The notes under the pieces were generated by a model. That model ran no database searches and was not told where the DNA came from. It saw only the letters and a list, made by a program, of their open reading frames with translations. Both the position numbers and the translations under genes were made by a program. A stretch of 64,000 bases of DNA from Alphaproteobacteria bacterium (GTDB taxonomy: Bacteria; Pseudomonadota; Alphaproteobacteria; Rs-D84; CACZYB01), in the NCBI GenBank assembly GCA_016297965.1, contig JAEDDP010000001.1, positions 139,347 to 203,346 on the forward strand. The letters run 5' to 3'. Positions 2,721-17,664 of this stretch are shown here, piece after piece; position 1 is the stretch's first letter; each line of letters opens with the position of its first letter.

Positions 2721-4583
2721 TTATCGTACAACTATGTAAGTCATTATTGCCTTAAATATTTTGGCGGGGATTGTTCCACCATAACTTGAACTGCTCATTG
2801 GAGTGTTGTTATCGTTTCCAATCCAAATTCCGGTTATGTATTTGGGAGTATAGCCAATGAACCAAGCGTCCCTGTTATTTTGGCTTGTTCCGGTTTTTCC
2901 GTATATTGTTTCGCCGGCAATGTTGGCGTTGGCACCGGTACCGCCTTCTATTACACTTTTAAGCATAGAATTCATATAATTCGTGTATTTTTCGGAAATT
3001 ATTGTTCCAACACCGCTTCCGTGGCGGGAATATATAACCTCACCACTTGGGGTTGTGATTTCGTTTATTGTGTGTGGAATTACACCCTTTCCATTATTTG
3101 CAAATGTGGCGTAGGCGGATGTAAGGTCCATAAGTGTTGTTTCAGAGGTGCCAAGGATGATTGAATAATCATTGCTTAGTTTGTCAACAAGTCCCAATTT
3201 TTGGGCGGTTTTTATTATGTTTTTAAGTCCAATCTTTTTTGCAATTTGTACCGGAACTGTGTTTAATGATTTTTCAAGGGCGGTTTTCATTGTAACCGGT
3301 CCTAAATACTTTTCATCGTGGTTTCGTGGGGTCCAATCGCCAATGGAGGTTGGTTTGTCATCAAATATGTCCGTTGGGGTAAGTCCGGATTCAAGTCCCG
3401 CAAGATATACGAATGGTTTGAAGATTGAACCCGGTTGTCGTTTCATCTGACTTGCACGGTTGAATTGGGTTTGGCTGTAATCACTTCCACCGATAAGTCC
3501 AAGTATTTCACCGTCTGTATTCATTATTACGGTGGCAATTTGTGAAAAGTTGTATTTTTCGCCGTCATTTTCAAGGTAAGTTTTTGTAATGTTTTCGGCG
3601 GTTTTTTGGATTTTTGAATCCAATGTCGTGTGTATTATAATATCCGTTGAAATATCACCGATAAGGGAATTAAAGCTGTCCATTGTGTAGTCAATGAAAT
3701 AACGGGTTTGATTAAAGTTTGTGTCCTGTTTTTCATATTTGTAATTCATTGCAGTAATATATTCGTCTTCGGTAATATAGTTTTGTTCCCGCATAAGTTT
3801 AAGGACAACCTTCATTCGCGAAATAGAAGCATCAGGATTTTTTGCCGGATTTAGTTTTGATGGTGCGCGAAGCATTCCCGCAAGTATTGCAGATTCCGCG
3901 ATGTTTATATCGTATATTGATTTTCCAAAGATACTTTCGGCGGCAATTGCAATTCCATATTTGCCACCAACCAATGAAATGCGGTTAAGATACAAAGATA
4001 AAATCTGATTTTTTGTGAATTTATGTTCCAACCAAAGGGTTATCATAACTTCTTGAAGTTTTCGTTTGATGGATCGTTCCTTTGAAAGGAAAACATTTTT
4101 TGCAAGTTGTTGTGTGATGGAGCTTCCACCTTGGGCGGTACGGTTTGCCTTTATATTATTATATATGGCGCGAAGAAGTCCGTGAATGTCAACGCCAAAG
4201 TGTGAAAAAAACCTTTTGTCTTCGGTGGCGATGACTGCTTGCCAAACGTGTTTTGGAAGTTTTTCAACCTCTACCGTATTGCCGTACATATCATTTATTG
4301 CGGTGATTTTTTCATCGTTGCGGTCAAGTATAGTAATGCTTGGAGAACGGGTTTTGTTTGTTATGTGTTCAATATTTGGAAGGGTTAGTGCCAAATATAA
4401 AATTACGATGGAAAGGGCAATACCCGCCCAAATGCCAAGGATAAAAAGATAGTAAAACAAGGCCTTTAATATAGGATGTGATGAGTCTCCATCGTACCCC
4501 CTTATTTTTCCGCGAACCGCAGGACCACAATGGTATGCCTTGCATCCACGGGAAAGATTGTATTTAAACCTTGTCAGTTTCAT
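2721..4583 (-). CDS. Class A penicillin-binding protein (transglycosylase + transpeptidase), membrane anchored
   Basis: N-terminal TM anchor, GT51 motifs (EDKRFFSHFGVD, RAPSKLNP), transpeptidase SxxK (GSIFKP), SLN and KTG motifs. Confidence 0.85.
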   Translation of the reverse strand: MKLTRFKYNLSRGCKAYHCGPAVRGKIRGYDGDSSHPILKALFYYLFILGIWAGIALSIVILYLALTLPNIEHITNKTRSPSITILDRNDEKITAINDMYGNTVEVEKLPKHVWQAVIATEDKRFFSHFGVDIHGLLRAIYNNIKANRTAQGGSSITQQLAKNVFLSKERSIKRKLQEVMITLWLEHKFTKNQILSLYLNRISLVGGKYGIAIAAESIFGKSIYDINIAESAILAGMLRAPSKLNPAKNPDASISRMKVVLKLMREQNYITEDEYITAMNYKYEKQDTNFNQTRYFIDYTMDSFNSLIGDISTDIIIHTTLDSKIQKTAENITKTYLENDGEKYNFSQIATVIMNTDGEILGLIGGSDYSQTQFNRASQMKRQPGSIFKPFVYLAGLESGLTPTDIFDDKPTSIGDWTPRNHDEKYLGPVTMKTALEKSLNTVPVQIAKKIGLKNIIKTAQKLGLVDKLSNDYSIILGTSETTLMDLTSAYATFANNGKGVIPHTINEITTPSGEVIYSRHGSGVGTIISEKYTNYMNSMLKSVIEGGTGANANIAGETIYGKTGTSQNNRDAWFIGYTPKYITGIWIGNDNNTPMSSSSYGGTIPAKIFKAIMTYIVVR

Positions 4584-14892: not shown

Positions 14893-15153
14893 TTGAAAAA
14901 GGAGAAACAAATGGCAAAAACAGATGGAATTCAAGCAGAACAACTAAACAGCTTTATGGATAGAATTGAAAGATTGGAAGAAGAAATGGCAAATATCAGA
15001 AGTGATATTCGTGAAATTTATGCCGAAGCAAAAAGTGTTGGTTATGATCCAAAGATTATGAGGGTTGTTTTAAGATTAAAGAAGCTTGACGAAGCGGATA
15101 GGGTAGAACTTGACGAATTAACAGAAACCTATCGTGCAGCATTGAATGTTTAG
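14893..15153 (+). CDS. DUF2312 / GapR-like small nucleoid-associated protein (alphaproteobacterial marker)
   Basis: 86 aa coiled-coil protein with AEQLNSFMDRIERLEEE...IYAEAKSVGYDPKIMRVVLRLKK pattern recalled from GapR. Confidence 0.6.
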   Translation: MKKEKQMAKTDGIQAEQLNSFMDRIERLEEEMANIRSDIREIYAEAKSVGYDPKIMRVVLRLKKLDEADRVELDELTETYRAALNV

Positions 15154-15183: not shown

Positions 15184-15218
15184 AATCCCCGCCTTTTTTG
15201 ACGGGGAGTTTTTTTTGT
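15184..15218 (+). terminator. Intrinsic terminator after the GapR-like gene
   Basis: aaaatccccgccttttttgacggggagtttttttt. Confidence 0.7.
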
Positions 15219-15295
15219 TGGTGTTGGATAATAAAAACTTTTCCTTGTACCATTCCGAATTTATTTCGGAAACTTTTTCTTTTACTCTCGTTCCT

Positions 15296-15500
15296 CTAAC
15301 GGATTTTGAAACAAGTTCAGGATGACGGGTGGACCGTGGGCTGGCGGACATTCGGTCCAACTTTACGGACGGATGCCTTCCGCACACACAATACATGCTC
15401 CATCACACCTGCCTGCACGCACCAGAAACTCTGGACTGCTGGCGGATGGTCTCCATCACCTATGGAGTGGGGGAGAAGCTATCACACAAAATTCTCCCAT
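15296..15500. ncRNA. Candidate structured non-coding RNA (GC-rich island, identity unresolved)
   Basis: About 55% GC vs ~36% background; multiple stems (ggaccg...cggtcc etc.); lies between two convergent terminators with no credible ORF. Confidence 0.35.
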
Positions 15501-15619
15501 ATATTTTTTGGGAAATAAAAATGAAAAATAATTTCCAATCATTCCCCAAATCAAAACACCAATCCTCCGTTTGCATAAAATAAACGTGGCTTGCTTTTTT
15601 ATTTTTCCTTCGTACTAAA

Positions 15620-15870
15620 AATTAGCTGGGGAGTTCGTAAATCATATGTTCTGAAATGCTCCTATGGATTTTAGAATACAAAATAAAGTATTCCTGTTGT
15701 ATAGCCATAGCTCCCCAACCACATAGGTTGAGGAAATAGTCGTCAACAACCGTTCAAAAGATGAACGGAACAACTCTCGGTGCTATTTTTACCGCTATAC
15801 TTCAAGAGCTTCTGACAGCTCCGTACCAAATTTCGGTACTGTTAATACACTTAGTGTATCGCAATCTATT
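15620..15870. ncRNA. Second candidate structured RNA / long nested inverted repeat
   Basis: Nested stems ggggag(...ctatgg...ccatag...)ctcccc, ccgttcaaaagatgaacgg, gtaccaaatttcggtac; non-coding context. Confidence 0.3.
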
Positions 15871-15902
15871 CTATATATTTTTTTCATAAATCAAGAATAA
15901 AA

Positions 15903-15936
15903 AAACTCCGCCTTTTAAAAAAGACGGAGTTTATAA
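15903..15936 (-). terminator. Intrinsic terminator of rpsA
   Basis: minus-strand reading: aaactccgtcttttttaaaaggcggagttttttt. Confidence 0.7.
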
Positions 15937-15951
15937 AGAATTTCAAAAAAT

Positions 15952-17664
15952 TTATTTCTTTGATTTCTTTTCTGCTTCTTTTATTGATGCACCAAGGATG
16001 TCCCCTAAAAGAGCACCAGTGTCAGTTGAGCCATATTCCTTCATTATCTTTTTCTCTTCTTCTATTTCATAAGCACGAATAGATAATGTAAGTTGCATTG
16101 TTTTGTTGTCAATTGCAGTAATTTTAGCGTCAACCTTTTCATCAACAGCGAATCTGTCTGGTCTTTGTTCTGACTTTGTCTTTGAAAGATCATTTGTTTT
16201 AATGAAACCAGGAAGTCCGTTAACATCAACTGCGATACCGTCTTCTTTGATTTCCTTTACAACACAGGTTACAATTTCACCCTTTTTTACACGATCAAGT
16301 GAAGATGCAACACGATCTTCCTTCAATTGTTTGATACCAAGAGAAATTCTTTCCTTATCAGCATCAATTTCAAGAATTTTTGTCTTGATTGTCATACCCT
16401 TTGAATAATCCTTTACGGCTTCTTCTGGGTTTTTATCCCAATCAATGTCAGATAGGTGAACCATACCGTCAAGGTCGTTTCCAAGGCTTACAAATATACC
16501 GAATTCAGTGATATTTTTGATTTCGCCTTCAATAATGTCGCCAACCTTGTGTGTTTCGGCGAATTCTTTCCATGGGTTTGGTGTGCATTGCTTTAAACCA
16601 AGTGAAATACGACGTTTTTCACGATCAATTTCAAGAATCATTACATCAACAGAATCGCCAGTTGAAATAACCTTTGATGGATGTACATTCTTCTTTGTCC
16701 ATGAAATTTCAGATACGTGTACAAGACCTTCAATACCATCATCCAAGTCAATGAATGCACCGTAATCTGTAAGGTTTGTTACTGTACCCTTGTAAATCTT
16801 GCCAACTTCAAAGTTGTCAATGTTTTCCCATGGATCTTTTTCAAGTTGTTTCATACCAAGTGATACACGACCAGATTCTCTGTCAAAGTTGATAACTTTA
16901 ACTGTAATTTTTTGACCAATTTGGAAAAGTTCGTTTGGATTTGAAACACGTTTCCATGAAATATCTGTGATATGTAAAAGACCATCAACACCACCAAGGT
17001 CAATAAATACACCATAGTCAGTAATGTTTTTGATGATACCTTCCATAATATCGCCAATTTTAATGTTTTTGATGATTTCATCACGTTTTTCAGCTCTGTC
17101 ACCTTCAAGGATTGCACGATGAGATACGATAAGATTTGATCTTAGTTTATCCATCTTTATAATCTTAAAGTCCATAGGTTTGTTCATAAGAGCGTTTACA
17201 TCCTTTACAGGATTGATGTCAAGTTGTGATGATGGCATAAATGCAGGGATTCCATTAAGATCAACAGTAAATCCACCACGTACACGGTCTGTAATTTGAC
17301 CAGTAACGATTTTGTTTTCTGCAACTTGTTTTTCAATTTCTTTCCATGTTTCTTCTTTTCTTGCCTTTTCACGGGAAGCAATAAGAAGACCATCACGACC
17401 TTCGTATCTTTCAACGTAAACATCAACGATGTCGCCAACCTTGATTTCATCGTTTCTGAATTCACGAATATCAATATGACCTTCGGATTTCAAACCAACG
17501 TTTACGATAACGAAGTCCTTTTTAATATCAACAATAGTACCCTTTGTTACATAACCTTCAAGTTTTGAAGAGTTTGTATACATAGAGTTAAATAATTCAG
17601 CAAAGTTTTCACCCGTTGAAAATAATTCTGCATCTGTATCGAAAATAGTTTTTTTAGCTTTCAT
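15952..17664 (-). CDS. rpsA: 30S ribosomal protein S1
   Basis: 570 aa; six S1 repeats; located downstream of cmk as in the conserved cmk-rpsA arrangement. Confidence 0.95.
   Translation of the reverse strand: MKAKKTIFDTDAELFSTGENFAELFNSMYTNSSKLEGYVTKGTIVDIKKDFVIVNVGLKSEGHIDIREFRNDEIKVGDIVDVYVERYEGRDGLLIASREKARKEETWKEIEKQVAENKIVTGQITDRVRGGFTVDLNGIPAFMPSSQLDINPVKDVNALMNKPMDFKIIKMDKLRSNLIVSHRAILEGDRAEKRDEIIKNIKIGDIMEGIIKNITDYGVFIDLGGVDGLLHITDISWKRVSNPNELFQIGQKITVKVINFDRESGRVSLGMKQLEKDPWENIDNFEVGKIYKGTVTNLTDYGAFIDLDDGIEGLVHVSEISWTKKNVHPSKVISTGDSVDVMILEIDREKRRISLGLKQCTPNPWKEFAETHKVGDIIEGEIKNITEFGIFVSLGNDLDGMVHLSDIDWDKNPEEAVKDYSKGMTIKTKILEIDADKERISLGIKQLKEDRVASSLDRVKKGEIVTCVVKEIKEDGIAVDVNGLPGFIKTNDLSKTKSEQRPDRFAVDEKVDAKITAIDNKTMQLTLSIRAYEIEEEKKIMKEYGSTDTGALLGDILGASIKEAEKKSKK

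What the first reader, a model, noticed from the sequence alone, without database searches (positions are those of the whole stretch)
15296..15900. GC-rich, highly structured ~600-nt non-coding island between two convergent terminators (unidentified RNA gene or genes)
Between the GapR-like terminator (15184-15218) and the rpsA terminator (15903-15936) lies a segment whose GC content (about 55% in 15296-15480) far exceeds the ~36% background. It contains many stems (ggaccg/cggtcc; a nested ggggag(...ctatgg...ccatag...)ctcccc stem spanning ~100 nt; ccgttcaaaagatgaacgg; gtaccaaatttcggtac) and a possible extra terminator at 15251-15292. The ORF calls inside are short, overlapping and implausible. 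In AT-rich genomes such islands usually mark RNA genes (tmRNA, RNase P RNA, 6S, SRP RNA or a novel sRNA), and CCUCC motifs occur here too. I could not find the tmRNA T-loop (GGTTCGANTCC) or the RNase P P4 (CCGGGC) signatures, so the identity is open.
Basis: seen in the sequence. Interest (0 to 1): 0.55.

Follow-up and report, generated by a model that had tools for sequence, protein, structure and literature searches.

The report
Orphaned structured mRNA leader, sRNA-Xcc1-like
The flagged non-coding stretch is the leftover, gene-less 5' leader of a variable secreted-protein gene; its right half holds a real, conserved RNA switch distantly related to the known sRNA-Xcc1 family, while the GC-rich peak itself shows no sign of function.

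Summary
Window 15296-15480 is 55.7% GC, the highest peak in the 64 kb. It is non-coding and lies between the gapR and rpsA terminators. It is not tmRNA, RNase P, 6S or SRP RNA.

The real RNA element lies in the AT-rich right half, on the minus strand. A promoter-like site follows the rpsA terminator. Next come a hairpin-rich 5' domain (15862-15735) and a 120-nt three-stem core (15734-15614). This core is conserved in 29 sites: 94% of cells pair and 22 of 28 pairs show compensatory changes.

The window copy gets no Rfam hit. Its relatives score 36-50.5 bits against sRNA-Xcc1 (RF02221, cutoff 53) with the same architecture. In relatives the element sits upstream of small secreted or membrane protein genes. 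Twenty of 29 copies have a terminator overlapping the 3' strand of P1, and an upstream segment can pair with the 5' strand instead. That is the layout of a riboswitch-like attenuator.

In this strain the downstream Cys/Gly-rich gene is absent. What remains is a conserved UTR stretch, the GC core (15447-15329) and one unit of a 97-nt repeat that is tandem in other strains. The GC core has no homologue and no covariation, and it evolves at least as fast as its surroundings. It is probably debris of a modular UTR.

The parts
15184..15218 (.). gapR terminator. The hairpin tccccg...cgggga is flanked by an A-run and a T-run, so it reads as an intrinsic terminator on both strands and would also end minus-strand leader transcripts.
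   Evidence: Read from the sequence. It is 99% identical in conspecific contigs L089-L097, up to the point where they diverge at about 15215-15225.
15251..15328 (-). A single unit of a two-hairpin repeat (ttccgaatttatttcggaa and ggattttgaaacaagttcaggatg). In other strains and loci it is tandem in the 5' UTR of the Cys/Gly-rich gene.
   Evidence: 85-91% identical to the 97-nt unit that is present 5.3 times in L090 (4404-4916), twice in L089 and L091, and 3-4 times in L124 and L125. Terminator-like on the plus strand. Not dispersed elsewhere in the 64 kb.
15329..15447 (-). GC core (about 59% GC). A strain-restricted spacer in the position that other loci fill with GC-rich hairpin modules of the long 5' UTR. 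No evidence of a function of its own.
   Evidence: Found only in same-species contigs L001 and L006. It differs at 3.3-4.1% of sites, against 0-0.8% in the 5' domain and 0.4-0.7% in rpsA, with no compensatory pairs. No match in plasmids, phages or the Cys/Gly-rich proteins. The equivalent modules in L089 and L091 are 47-62% GC.
15448..15613 (-). Conserved 5'-UTR segment downstream of the core, including the hairpins gggagaauuuuguguga uagcuucuccc and cuccau...auggag.
   Evidence: 85% identical over 156 nt to L126 181-330. There it lies between an Xcc1-like core (R1, 48 bits) and the Cys/Gly-rich gene P0001.
15614..15734 (-). sRNA-Xcc1-like core. Anti-P1 arm CCUCAACC (15733-15726). P1 GGUUGGGGAG (15720-15711) with CUCCCCAGCU (15633-15624). 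P2 CUAUGG (15710-15705) with CCAUAG (15667-15662). Internal loop CUAUACAACA. P3 GAAUAC with GUAUUC (15693-15674). UAAAAU. P4 GAGCAU (15661-15656) with AUGAUU (15645-15640).
   Evidence: Model R1 scores 111 bits. On 29 family members 94% of cells pair and 22 of 28 pairs have compensatory changes, against 33-50% paired in slid controls. G-U pairs fix the strand. Relatives hit RF02221 at 36-50.5 bits. Both the P1 form and the alternative P0 form appear in folds of the window copy.
15735..15862 (-). 5' domain of the leader. Hairpin 0 (15859-15845), hairpin A guaccgaaauuugguac (15839-15823), hairpin B gagcu...agcuc (15821-15806), and ccguucaucuuuugaacgg followed by UUGUUG (15768-15750). The last stands where relatives have a strong T1 terminator.
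   Evidence: Conserved in nine gut-clade copies. Hairpin A has compensatory changes in 4 of 6 pairs. A T1 hairpin plus U-run is present in 8 of 9. It differs at 0-0.8% of sites between strains.
15868..15894 (-). Candidate sigma-70 promoter of the leader: TTGATT (15894-15889), a 15-nt spacer, then TAGAAT (15873-15868).
   Evidence: Positions. The homologous positions in L008 and L123 read TTGATT-17 nt-TAATAT (sequences). This is an inference, and the scanner did not list it because of the 15-nt spacer.
15903..15932 (-). rpsA intrinsic terminator.
   Evidence: 13-bp stem followed by a T-run.

Best explanation
The island is the orphaned, modular 5' leader of a gene that this strain lacks at this locus.

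Layout. Transcription on the minus strand would start just after the rpsA terminator. It would run through a hairpin-rich 5' domain and then a 120-nt three-stem core that is a divergent relative of the sRNA-Xcc1 family. After that come a conserved UTR segment, a GC-rich spacer and one unit of a two-hairpin repeat. It would end at the bidirectional gapR terminator.

Context in relatives. In sister species, in conspecific strains and at paralogous loci, the same leader precedes genes for secreted cysteine-rich proteins with ephrin-receptor/TNFR-like repeats, some of which also have a glycine-rich C-terminal part. In more distant copies it precedes assorted small membrane, lipoprotein or exported protein genes.

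Inferred mechanism for the family. The core is a switch. The 5' strand of P1 (GGUUGGGGAG, which resembles a Shine-Dalgarno sequence) can pair with an upstream arm (P0). Alternatively it can pair with the 3' strand (CUCCCC...), which closes the three-way junction. The last 3-5 nt of that 3' strand are also the start of an intrinsic terminator. P1 formation would therefore disable the terminator and switch expression on, while P0 formation would free it and switch expression off. The signal that favours P1, whether a ligand, a protein or an RNA, is unknown.

In this window. There is no terminator after the core and no gene downstream, and P4 carries a G-A mismatch at a conserved pair. This copy is most likely a relic, or at most the source of a non-coding transcript.

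Shown and inferred. Shown: the conservation, the covariation, the strand, the gene contexts, the terminator overlap, the absence of the gene and the relation to RF02221. Inferred: transcription, the promoter, the direction of the switch, and the lack of function of the GC core.
For: Structure and strand:
- Four species already give 10 compensatory pairs out of 39.
- With 29 sites, 94% of cells pair and 22 of 28 pairs show compensatory change. No shuffle out of 500 reaches these values, and slid controls pair at 33-50%.
- Many U-G and G-U pairs would be mismatches on the other strand.

Relation to sRNA-Xcc1:
- Eleven relatives found with model R1 hit RF02221 over its full length, at the same coordinates and with the same helices, at 36-50.5 bits.
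- L034 and L052 are among them. They were fetched through rpsA, not through the sequence pattern.

Leader role:
- The element is followed on the same strand by Cys-rich secreted protein operons in L008, L013, L016, L103, L100, L050 (twice), L052, L031, L024 and L126. Elsewhere it precedes other small exported or membrane protein genes.
- Twenty of 29 copies have a hairpin plus U-run that starts inside the 3' strand of P1.
- The upstream arm is complementary to the 5' strand of P1 and changes together with it in L031, L024, L012 and L050.
- Both conformations appear in folds of the window copy.

Orphan status:
- Conspecific contigs with an identical GapR carry a 304-425 aa Cys/Gly-rich gene next to gapR, on the same strand as rpsA. 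The window has 35 nt in its place.
- Window 15613-15448 matches the UTR between core and gene in L126.
- The repeat unit is tandem in the UTRs of L090, L124 and L125.
- tblastn finds no trace of the sister-species Cys-rich proteins anywhere in the 64-kb window, and none of the conspecific ones in the island itself.
Against: No transcript data are available for any copy, so the promoter, the RNA ends and the switch are all inferred.

The window copy and its closest relatives (L008, L013, L016, L103, L122, L123) lack an obvious terminator after the core. The attenuation model therefore rests on the more distant copies.

In L122 and in the window nothing follows the element, which also fits a free-standing sRNA gene.

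Published work treats sRNA-Xcc1 as a trans-acting sRNA of about 88 nt (PMC2996969; Chen et al. 2011 as cited in PMC3531072).

The alignment used for the pair counts was fitted to the model, which favours the structure (tool caveat).

No contig joins the rpsA-side leader to the Cys/Gly-rich gene in the same species, because assemblies break there.

The window copy is not detected by the Rfam model at all.
Confidence: 0.7

Rival explanations
1. The right half is a free-standing, trans-acting small RNA gene, as sRNA-Xcc1 is described in Xanthomonas. On this view the neighbouring protein genes in relatives are incidental.
For: The family is annotated as Gene; sRNA in Rfam. A discrete band of about 100 nt was seen in Xanthomonas (PMC2996969). 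In the window and in L122 no gene follows the element. A leader transcript ended at its terminator could also act in trans.
Against: In 20 of 29 copies the terminator overlaps P1, and a ribosome-binding site and start codon follow within about 20-80 nt on the same strand. The literature also places it upstream of symE and upstream of an ORF6N gene. The window copy has no terminator of its own that would define a small RNA.
Confidence: 0.2
2. The GC-rich core (15329-15447) is itself a functional structured RNA or a small RNA gene that is new to the databases.
For: It is the highest GC peak in 64 kb. The plus-strand fold of 15296-15500 has z = -2.9. The sequence is kept in three strains.
Against: There is no homologue beyond the species. 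It differs at 3.3-4.1% of sites, more than the flanking conserved parts. The changes at paired sites mostly break the plus-strand fold, and none is compensatory. There is no Rfam match. The same position in other loci holds unrelated GC-rich hairpin modules.
Confidence: 0.1
3. The GC-rich part is foreign DNA: a fragment of a mobile element or a pseudogene left by horizontal transfer.
For: Its composition is far from the genome's. The locus differs in content between strains. The cargo genes of this locus are themselves about 49% GC.
Against: There is no similarity to plasmids, phages, the Cys/Gly-rich proteins or any fetched locus. There is no second copy in the window. All six frames look non-coding and no ORF is in the protein collection. 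No integrase or transposase lies nearby.
Confidence: 0.1
4. The island is a divergent housekeeping RNA (two-piece tmRNA, RNase P, 6S or SRP RNA).
For: Only the composition argument.
Against: Rfam at gathering threshold and at E up to 10 gives none of these families. ARAGORN finds no tmRNA. The segment is absent from the sister species L008 at the same locus, which an essential RNA would not be.
Confidence: 0.01
5. The 18-nt inverted repeat (15458-15475 with 15711-15728) bounds an invertible segment that switches which downstream sequence the leader drives.
For: Contigs from three samples end at 15714 and one ends at 15452, close to the two arms.
Against: The repeat matches at 15 of 18 positions and is not significant against shuffles (19 of 300). 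All contigs that span the region (window, L001, L006, L002) are collinear. The 15452 end coincides with a strain polymorphism at 15449-15450. The left arm lies in a UTR segment that has the same orientation in L126. No recombinase gene is nearby.
Confidence: 0.03

Closest known systems
sRNA-Xcc1 (Rfam RF02221), the integron-cassette small RNA of Xanthomonas campestris
   Same: The architecture is the same. P1 encloses a P2-internal loop-P3 arm and a P4 hairpin. The internal loop reads AAUACAAUA in the family and AUACAACA in the window, and there is an A-rich 3' side. P1 reads GGnnGGGG with CCCCnnCC. Relatives of the window copy match the full Rfam model at 36-50.5 bits. Published copies also lie upstream of genes: symE in Xanthomonas integrons and an ORF6N gene in APSE phage.
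   Different: The window copy is not detected by the Rfam model, even at E up to 10 on 151 nt. It is AT-rich with a longer P3, so the core is about 120 nt against 87. It is preceded by an extra conserved 5' domain of about 125 nt. It is chromosomal, between rpsA and gapR, with no integron. In its clade it is associated with Cys-rich secreted proteins. The literature calls the family a trans-acting sRNA, whereas the contexts seen here point to a cis-acting attenuator.
Transcription-terminating riboswitches and attenuator leaders (orphan riboswitch candidates)
   Same: It has a conserved multi-stem junction with covariation and sits in 5' UTRs. The closing helix competes with an intrinsic terminator and with an upstream alternative pairing partner. 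A ribosome-binding site and start codon follow.
   Different: No ligand is known or suggested. The downstream genes are heterogeneous exported, membrane or hypothetical proteins rather than one pathway. The window copy has neither terminator nor gene.
Locus-bound tandem and palindromic repeat arrays in bacterial intergenic regions (REP/BIME-, RPE- or Correia-like hairpin repeats)
   Same: Short GC-richer palindromic units of the form GTCATyCyGAA-N6-TTCrGrATGAC occur head to tail with variable copy number.
   Different: They are not dispersed. There is none elsewhere in the 64-kb window. They are confined to the 5' UTRs of one gene family, so they are not filed under those element families.

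Membership tests
sRNA-Xcc1 (RF02221) | Score at or above the Rfam gathering threshold (53 bits) | tested here: not met
   The window copy gives no RF02221 hit at gathering threshold, at E<=10 on 901 nt or at E<=10 on 151 nt. Relatives reach 36-50.5 bits, all below 53.
sRNA-Xcc1 (RF02221) | Secondary structure: P1 closing a junction with a P2/internal-loop/P3 arm and a P4 hairpin | tested here: met
   Same helices in the Rfam alignment of L117 and in model R1. 94% of cells pair and 22 of 28 pairs are compensatory over 29 sequences including the window.
sRNA-Xcc1 (RF02221) | Conserved internal-loop and junction nucleotides (AAUACAAUA; GAAUA; UUUUGAG before the 3' strand of P1) | tested here: met
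   The window has CUAUACAACA, UAAAAU and UUUACGAA-CU at the corresponding places. The columns AUAyAAyAG and AACU are nearly invariant in A4 and A6.
sRNA-Xcc1 (RF02221) | Location in integron gene cassettes, transposons or plasmids | tested here: not met
   The neighbours are clpX, cmk, rpsA, gapR, pyk and a GFO/IDH oxidoreductase, with no integrase. There is no plasmid or phage match for the part of the island left of the core, window 15290-15620. The core itself was not searched against those collections.
sRNA-Xcc1 (RF02221) | Discrete transcript of about 88 nt acting in trans | not testable with these tools
   This needs RNA data. It is known only for Xanthomonas (PMC2996969).
Riboswitch / transcription attenuator | Conserved structured domain in the 5' UTR, same strand as the downstream gene | tested here: inconclusive
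   Met for most family members. Not met in the window, where no gene follows.
Riboswitch / transcription attenuator | Expression platform: terminator or RBS pairing that competes with the closing helix | tested here: inconclusive
   Twenty of 29 members have a terminator starting inside the 3' strand of P1, and the anti-P1 arm covaries. The window copy and its six nearest relatives have no clear terminator.
Riboswitch / transcription attenuator | Direct binding of a ligand or factor that shifts the fold | not testable with these tools
   This needs in-line probing or binding assays.
Housekeeping RNAs (tmRNA, RNase P, 6S, SRP) | Match to the family covariance model or to ARAGORN | tested here: not met
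Dispersed palindromic repeats / MITE | Multiple dispersed copies in the genome | tested here: not met
   No second copy of any part of 15200-15950 in the 64-kb window. The hairpin signature occurs once at zero mismatches. Only 64 kb of this genome could be checked.

The most novel reading that the evidence does not exclude
The sRNA-Xcc1 family, catalogued as a trans-acting integron sRNA, may really be a widespread cis-acting RNA switch with an unknown effector. In this reading an anti-P1 arm, the P1 junction and an overlapping terminator together gate accessory genes for exported, membrane or toxin-like proteins. In gut Alphaproteobacteria it would have been built into a long modular leader (an extra 5' domain with its own terminator, GC-rich hairpin modules and a variable-number 97-nt repeat). 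That leader would drive a dispersed, near-identical, multi-copy family of ephrin-receptor/TNFR-like Cys/Gly-rich surface proteins. The window holds a gene-less copy of it.
Probability: 0.4. Interest if true: 0.6.

Novelty: new variant of a known kind. Interest (0 to 1): 0.42.

Why it matters
For annotation, the result shows that the composition cue misleads here. The GC peak is not the functional part, and the functional RNA sits in ordinary AT-rich sequence that the Rfam model misses.

For RNA biology, it adds a divergent gut-alphaproteobacterial branch to sRNA-Xcc1. That branch has an extra 5' domain. The comparative evidence (gene contexts, overlapping terminators, a covarying alternative pairing) suggests that this family, treated in the literature as a trans-acting virulence-linked sRNA, works as a cis-acting attenuator. 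That idea can be tested directly with reporters and probing.

It also points to an uncharacterised, multi-copy, strain-variable family of Cys/Gly-rich secreted proteins in uncultured gut Alphaproteobacteria. These genes share this leader, and assemblies break at them.

The window copy itself is probably a relic, so the local finding is modest.

Tried and rejected
1. Known RNA families. Rfam at gathering threshold and at permissive E-values, plus ARAGORN, found nothing in the island.

2. carA and nqrA-II motifs. Weak hits of 11-20 bits against a cutoff of 100 were followed up. carA is a Polynucleobacter carA leader, a single imperfect hairpin, and is unrelated.

3. Remnant of the Cys/Gly-rich gene. 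tblastn with 15 proteins gave nothing significant in the island.

4. Second, inverted, degenerate copy of the motif at 15452-15561 (plus strand). It was suggested by a 15.5-bit R1 hit and an 18-nt inverted repeat. It was rejected because the repeat is not significant and the segment is a conserved minus-strand UTR piece.

5. Leader peptide. The window core contains an AUG 2 nt after GGGGAG, with a 28-codon frame ending right after P1. The AUG is absent in L008, L016 and L013, and the P2 changes are compensatory at the RNA level.

6. Small ORF after the core (15576-15460, 38 aa). It has no ribosome-binding site, is frameshifted in L006 and is not in the protein collection.

7. Integron attC or GTTRRRY core sites. 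These were checked by eye in the repeat unit and at P1, and there was no proper match.

8. Dispersed repeat or MITE. There is no other copy in the window.

9. Plasmid search with a GC-rich family member found nothing.

10. Literature search for a cis-regulatory reading of sRNA-Xcc1. The ranked list was uninformative. Chen et al. 2011 is not held in the library.

Full report
**Setting.** The window is AT-rich (35.6% GC). It comes from an uncultured gut alphaproteobacterium. The best rpsA matches are MAGs labelled Alphaproteobacteria from human, ruminant and termite guts, and Candidatus Enterousia lies at about 52% identity. The locus reads pyk (minus), gapR (plus, 14911-15153), the flagged stretch, rpsA (minus, 15952-17664), cmk and clpX.

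**Observation.** 15296-15480 is 55.7% GC. In 180-nt windows this is the highest peak of the whole 64 kb, at 0.567 against a mean of 0.356 and sd of 0.055. Only about 185 nt are GC-rich, and the remainder of the 605-nt 'island' is 30-41% GC. Both flanking terminators and the extra plus-strand hairpin with T-run are present. No gene was called here on a conspecific contig. None of seven ORFs is in a 15-billion-protein collection. All six reading frames look non-coding.

**Known RNAs.** Rfam finds only a tRNA elsewhere in the window. Permissive searches of the island give only terminator-driven noise and weak carA and nqrA-II hits. ARAGORN finds no tmRNA.

**A conserved structured RNA in the right half.**
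- nhmmer showed that 15600-15905 has homologues, while the GC part does not. The homologues lie in the sister species L008 at the same place, and in L016 and L013 elsewhere and inverted.
- Aligning four species gave 10 compensatory pairs out of 39.
- A pattern scan of metagenomes and a covariance model built from 12 copies (R1) then found 29 sites at E<1e-4.
- On that alignment 94% of cells pair and 22 of 28 pairs show compensatory change. No shuffle out of 500 reaches the observed values, and slid controls pair at 33-50%. The alignment is fitted to the model, which favours the structure.
- Frequent U-G and G-U pairs place the RNA on the window's minus strand.
- The window leader (15610-15862, minus strand) folds at z = -4.67.

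**What the element is related to.**
- GC-richer members match the Rfam family sRNA-Xcc1 (RF02221) over its full length, at the same coordinates and with the same helices, at 36-50.5 bits. The cutoff is 53.
- Two gut alphaproteobacterial copies fetched only through rpsA (L034 and L052) do the same, at 42.9 and 37.6 bits.
- The window copy itself is invisible to the Rfam model.
- sRNA-Xcc1 was described as an 88-nt sRNA of Xanthomonas (PMC2996969). It was later described as an integron-encoded trans-acting sRNA (Chen et al. 2011, cited in PMC3531072).
- It lies upstream of symE in Xanthomonas cassettes (bioRxiv 10.1101/2025.06.18.660453) and upstream of an ORF6N gene in APSE phage. Xylella carries seven copies.

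**How the family is arranged.**
- In L008, L013, L016, L103, L100, L050 (two divergent copies), L052, L031, L024 and L126 the element is followed on the same strand by genes for signal-peptide-bearing, cysteine-rich proteins.
- Where tested, several of these proteins match ephrin-receptor-like or TNFR-like Cys repeats.
- In environmental copies it precedes small membrane proteins, lipoproteins and other hypothetical exported proteins. In L034 it precedes an SPFH/Band 7 protein.
- In 20 of 29 copies a hairpin plus U-run begins 3-5 nt inside the 3' strand of P1, and a ribosome-binding site and start codon follow.
- An arm 4-12 nt upstream of P1 is complementary to the 5' strand of P1 and changes together with it, for example CUCCUGA with GGUCAGGAGG in L031 and L024.
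- For the window copy, the minimum-energy fold of the core alone shows P1-P2-P3. The centroid, and the fold of the full leader, show the upstream hairpin instead.
- I infer a switch in which P1 formation removes the base of the terminator (on) and the upstream pairing frees it (off). The effector is unknown.
- The gut clade nearest the window lacks a clear terminator after the core. It carries an additional 5' domain instead. This domain has covarying hairpins and, in 8 of 9 copies, its own strong terminator-like hairpin (T1) just before the core.

**Why the window copy is an orphan.**
- GapR of identical sequence occurs on many contigs. On most of them a 304-425 aa Cys/Gly-rich gene lies next to gapR, on the same strand as rpsA.
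- Homology with the window stops at the gapR terminator and resumes at a repeat unit upstream of the gene. The window has 35 nt in place of about 1.1 kb.
- Window 15251-15328 is one unit of a 97-nt two-hairpin repeat. The repeat is tandem 5.3 times in L090 and 2-4 times in L089, L091, L124 and L125.
- Window 15613-15448 (minus strand) is 85% identical to the UTR that lies between an Xcc1-like core and a 92%-identical Cys/Gly-rich gene in L126, next to ychF. Another near-identical paralogue sits next to fabZ-lpxD.
- The gene family is therefore dispersed and multi-copy. That probably explains why assemblies break here, with 200-kb contigs ending inside the gene and rpsA-side contigs ending inside the leader.
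- The window copy also has a G-A mismatch at a conserved P4 pair.

**The GC core (15329-15447).**
- It occupies the place where other loci carry unrelated GC-rich hairpin modules of 47-62% GC.
- Only its first dozen bases (GGACCGTGGGC) resemble the start of those modules, judged by reading the sequences.
- It has no homologue outside the species, in plasmids or phages, or in the cargo proteins.
- Between strains it differs at 3.3-4.1% of sites. The comparable figures are 0-0.8% for the 5' domain, 1.7-3.3% for the core and 0.4-0.7% for rpsA.
- The changes give no compensatory pair, and most break the plus-strand fold.
- I conclude, with moderate confidence, that it is a fast-evolving spacer or debris of the modular UTR and not an RNA gene.

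**Verdict.** There is a real structured RNA here, but it is a leader-type element distantly related to sRNA-Xcc1, it lies outside the GC peak, and it is orphaned in this strain. The window copy is of modest interest. The family-level reading, that sRNA-Xcc1 is a cis-acting switch in front of accessory exported-protein genes, is the part worth testing.

Noticed in passing
L090 4404-4916; L089 4619-4997; L091 4389-4666; L124 363-823; L125 237-560: A 97-nt tandem repeat made of two palindromic hairpins (GTCATTCCGAA...TTCGGAATGAC and GTCATCCTGAA...TTCAGGATGAC). Copy number varies from 1 to 5.3 in the 5' UTRs of the Cys/Gly-rich genes. On the antisense strand each hairpin is followed by a T-run.
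   Followed up: partly
L089-L097 (next to gapR), L124 and L125 (next to fabZ-lpxD-ompH), L126 (next to ychF): A family of secreted Cys/Gly-rich proteins with ephrin-receptor/TNFR-like CxxCxxGxY repeats and a glycine-rich C-terminal half. Its members are multi-copy, more than 90% identical and about 49% GC in a 36% GC genome. Presence varies between strains, and 200-kb contigs end inside the gene.
   Followed up: partly
window 15714 (ends of L003, L004, L005) and 15452 (end of L002): Contigs from three independent samples stop at exactly the same base inside the 5' strand of P1. The 15452 end coincides with a 2-nt strain polymorphism. The 15714 end is unexplained and may be a branch between paralogous leaders.
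   Followed up: partly
L050 2071-2186 (minus) and 3166-3284 (plus): Two divergently oriented Xcc1-like leaders about 1 kb apart. Each has its own terminator and its own Cys-rich secreted protein gene.
   Followed up: no
L008 6127-6205: Two direct copies of a roughly 37-nt hairpin unit (aaggggtgaaggttttcatggcttcttcaccctccc) between the leader core and the first Cys-rich gene of the sister species. This is another locus-specific UTR repeat.
   Followed up: no
L120 5464-5693 (minus): A group I intron (Rfam, 66 bits) lies about 2 kb from an Xcc1-like element on an environmental contig. It is unrelated to the finding.
   Followed up: no
L050 6321-6399 and L052 6321-6398: Sub-threshold Trp-leader matches (28-34 bits, cutoff 41) downstream of rpsA in Enterousia-like MAGs.
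   Followed up: no
window 15711-15720 and family-wide: GGUUGGGGAG is almost invariant from gut to marine and soil copies and resembles a Shine-Dalgarno sequence. The true ribosome-binding sites downstream are also of the GGGAG type. The C-rich arms could therefore alternatively mask the real RBS.
   Followed up: no
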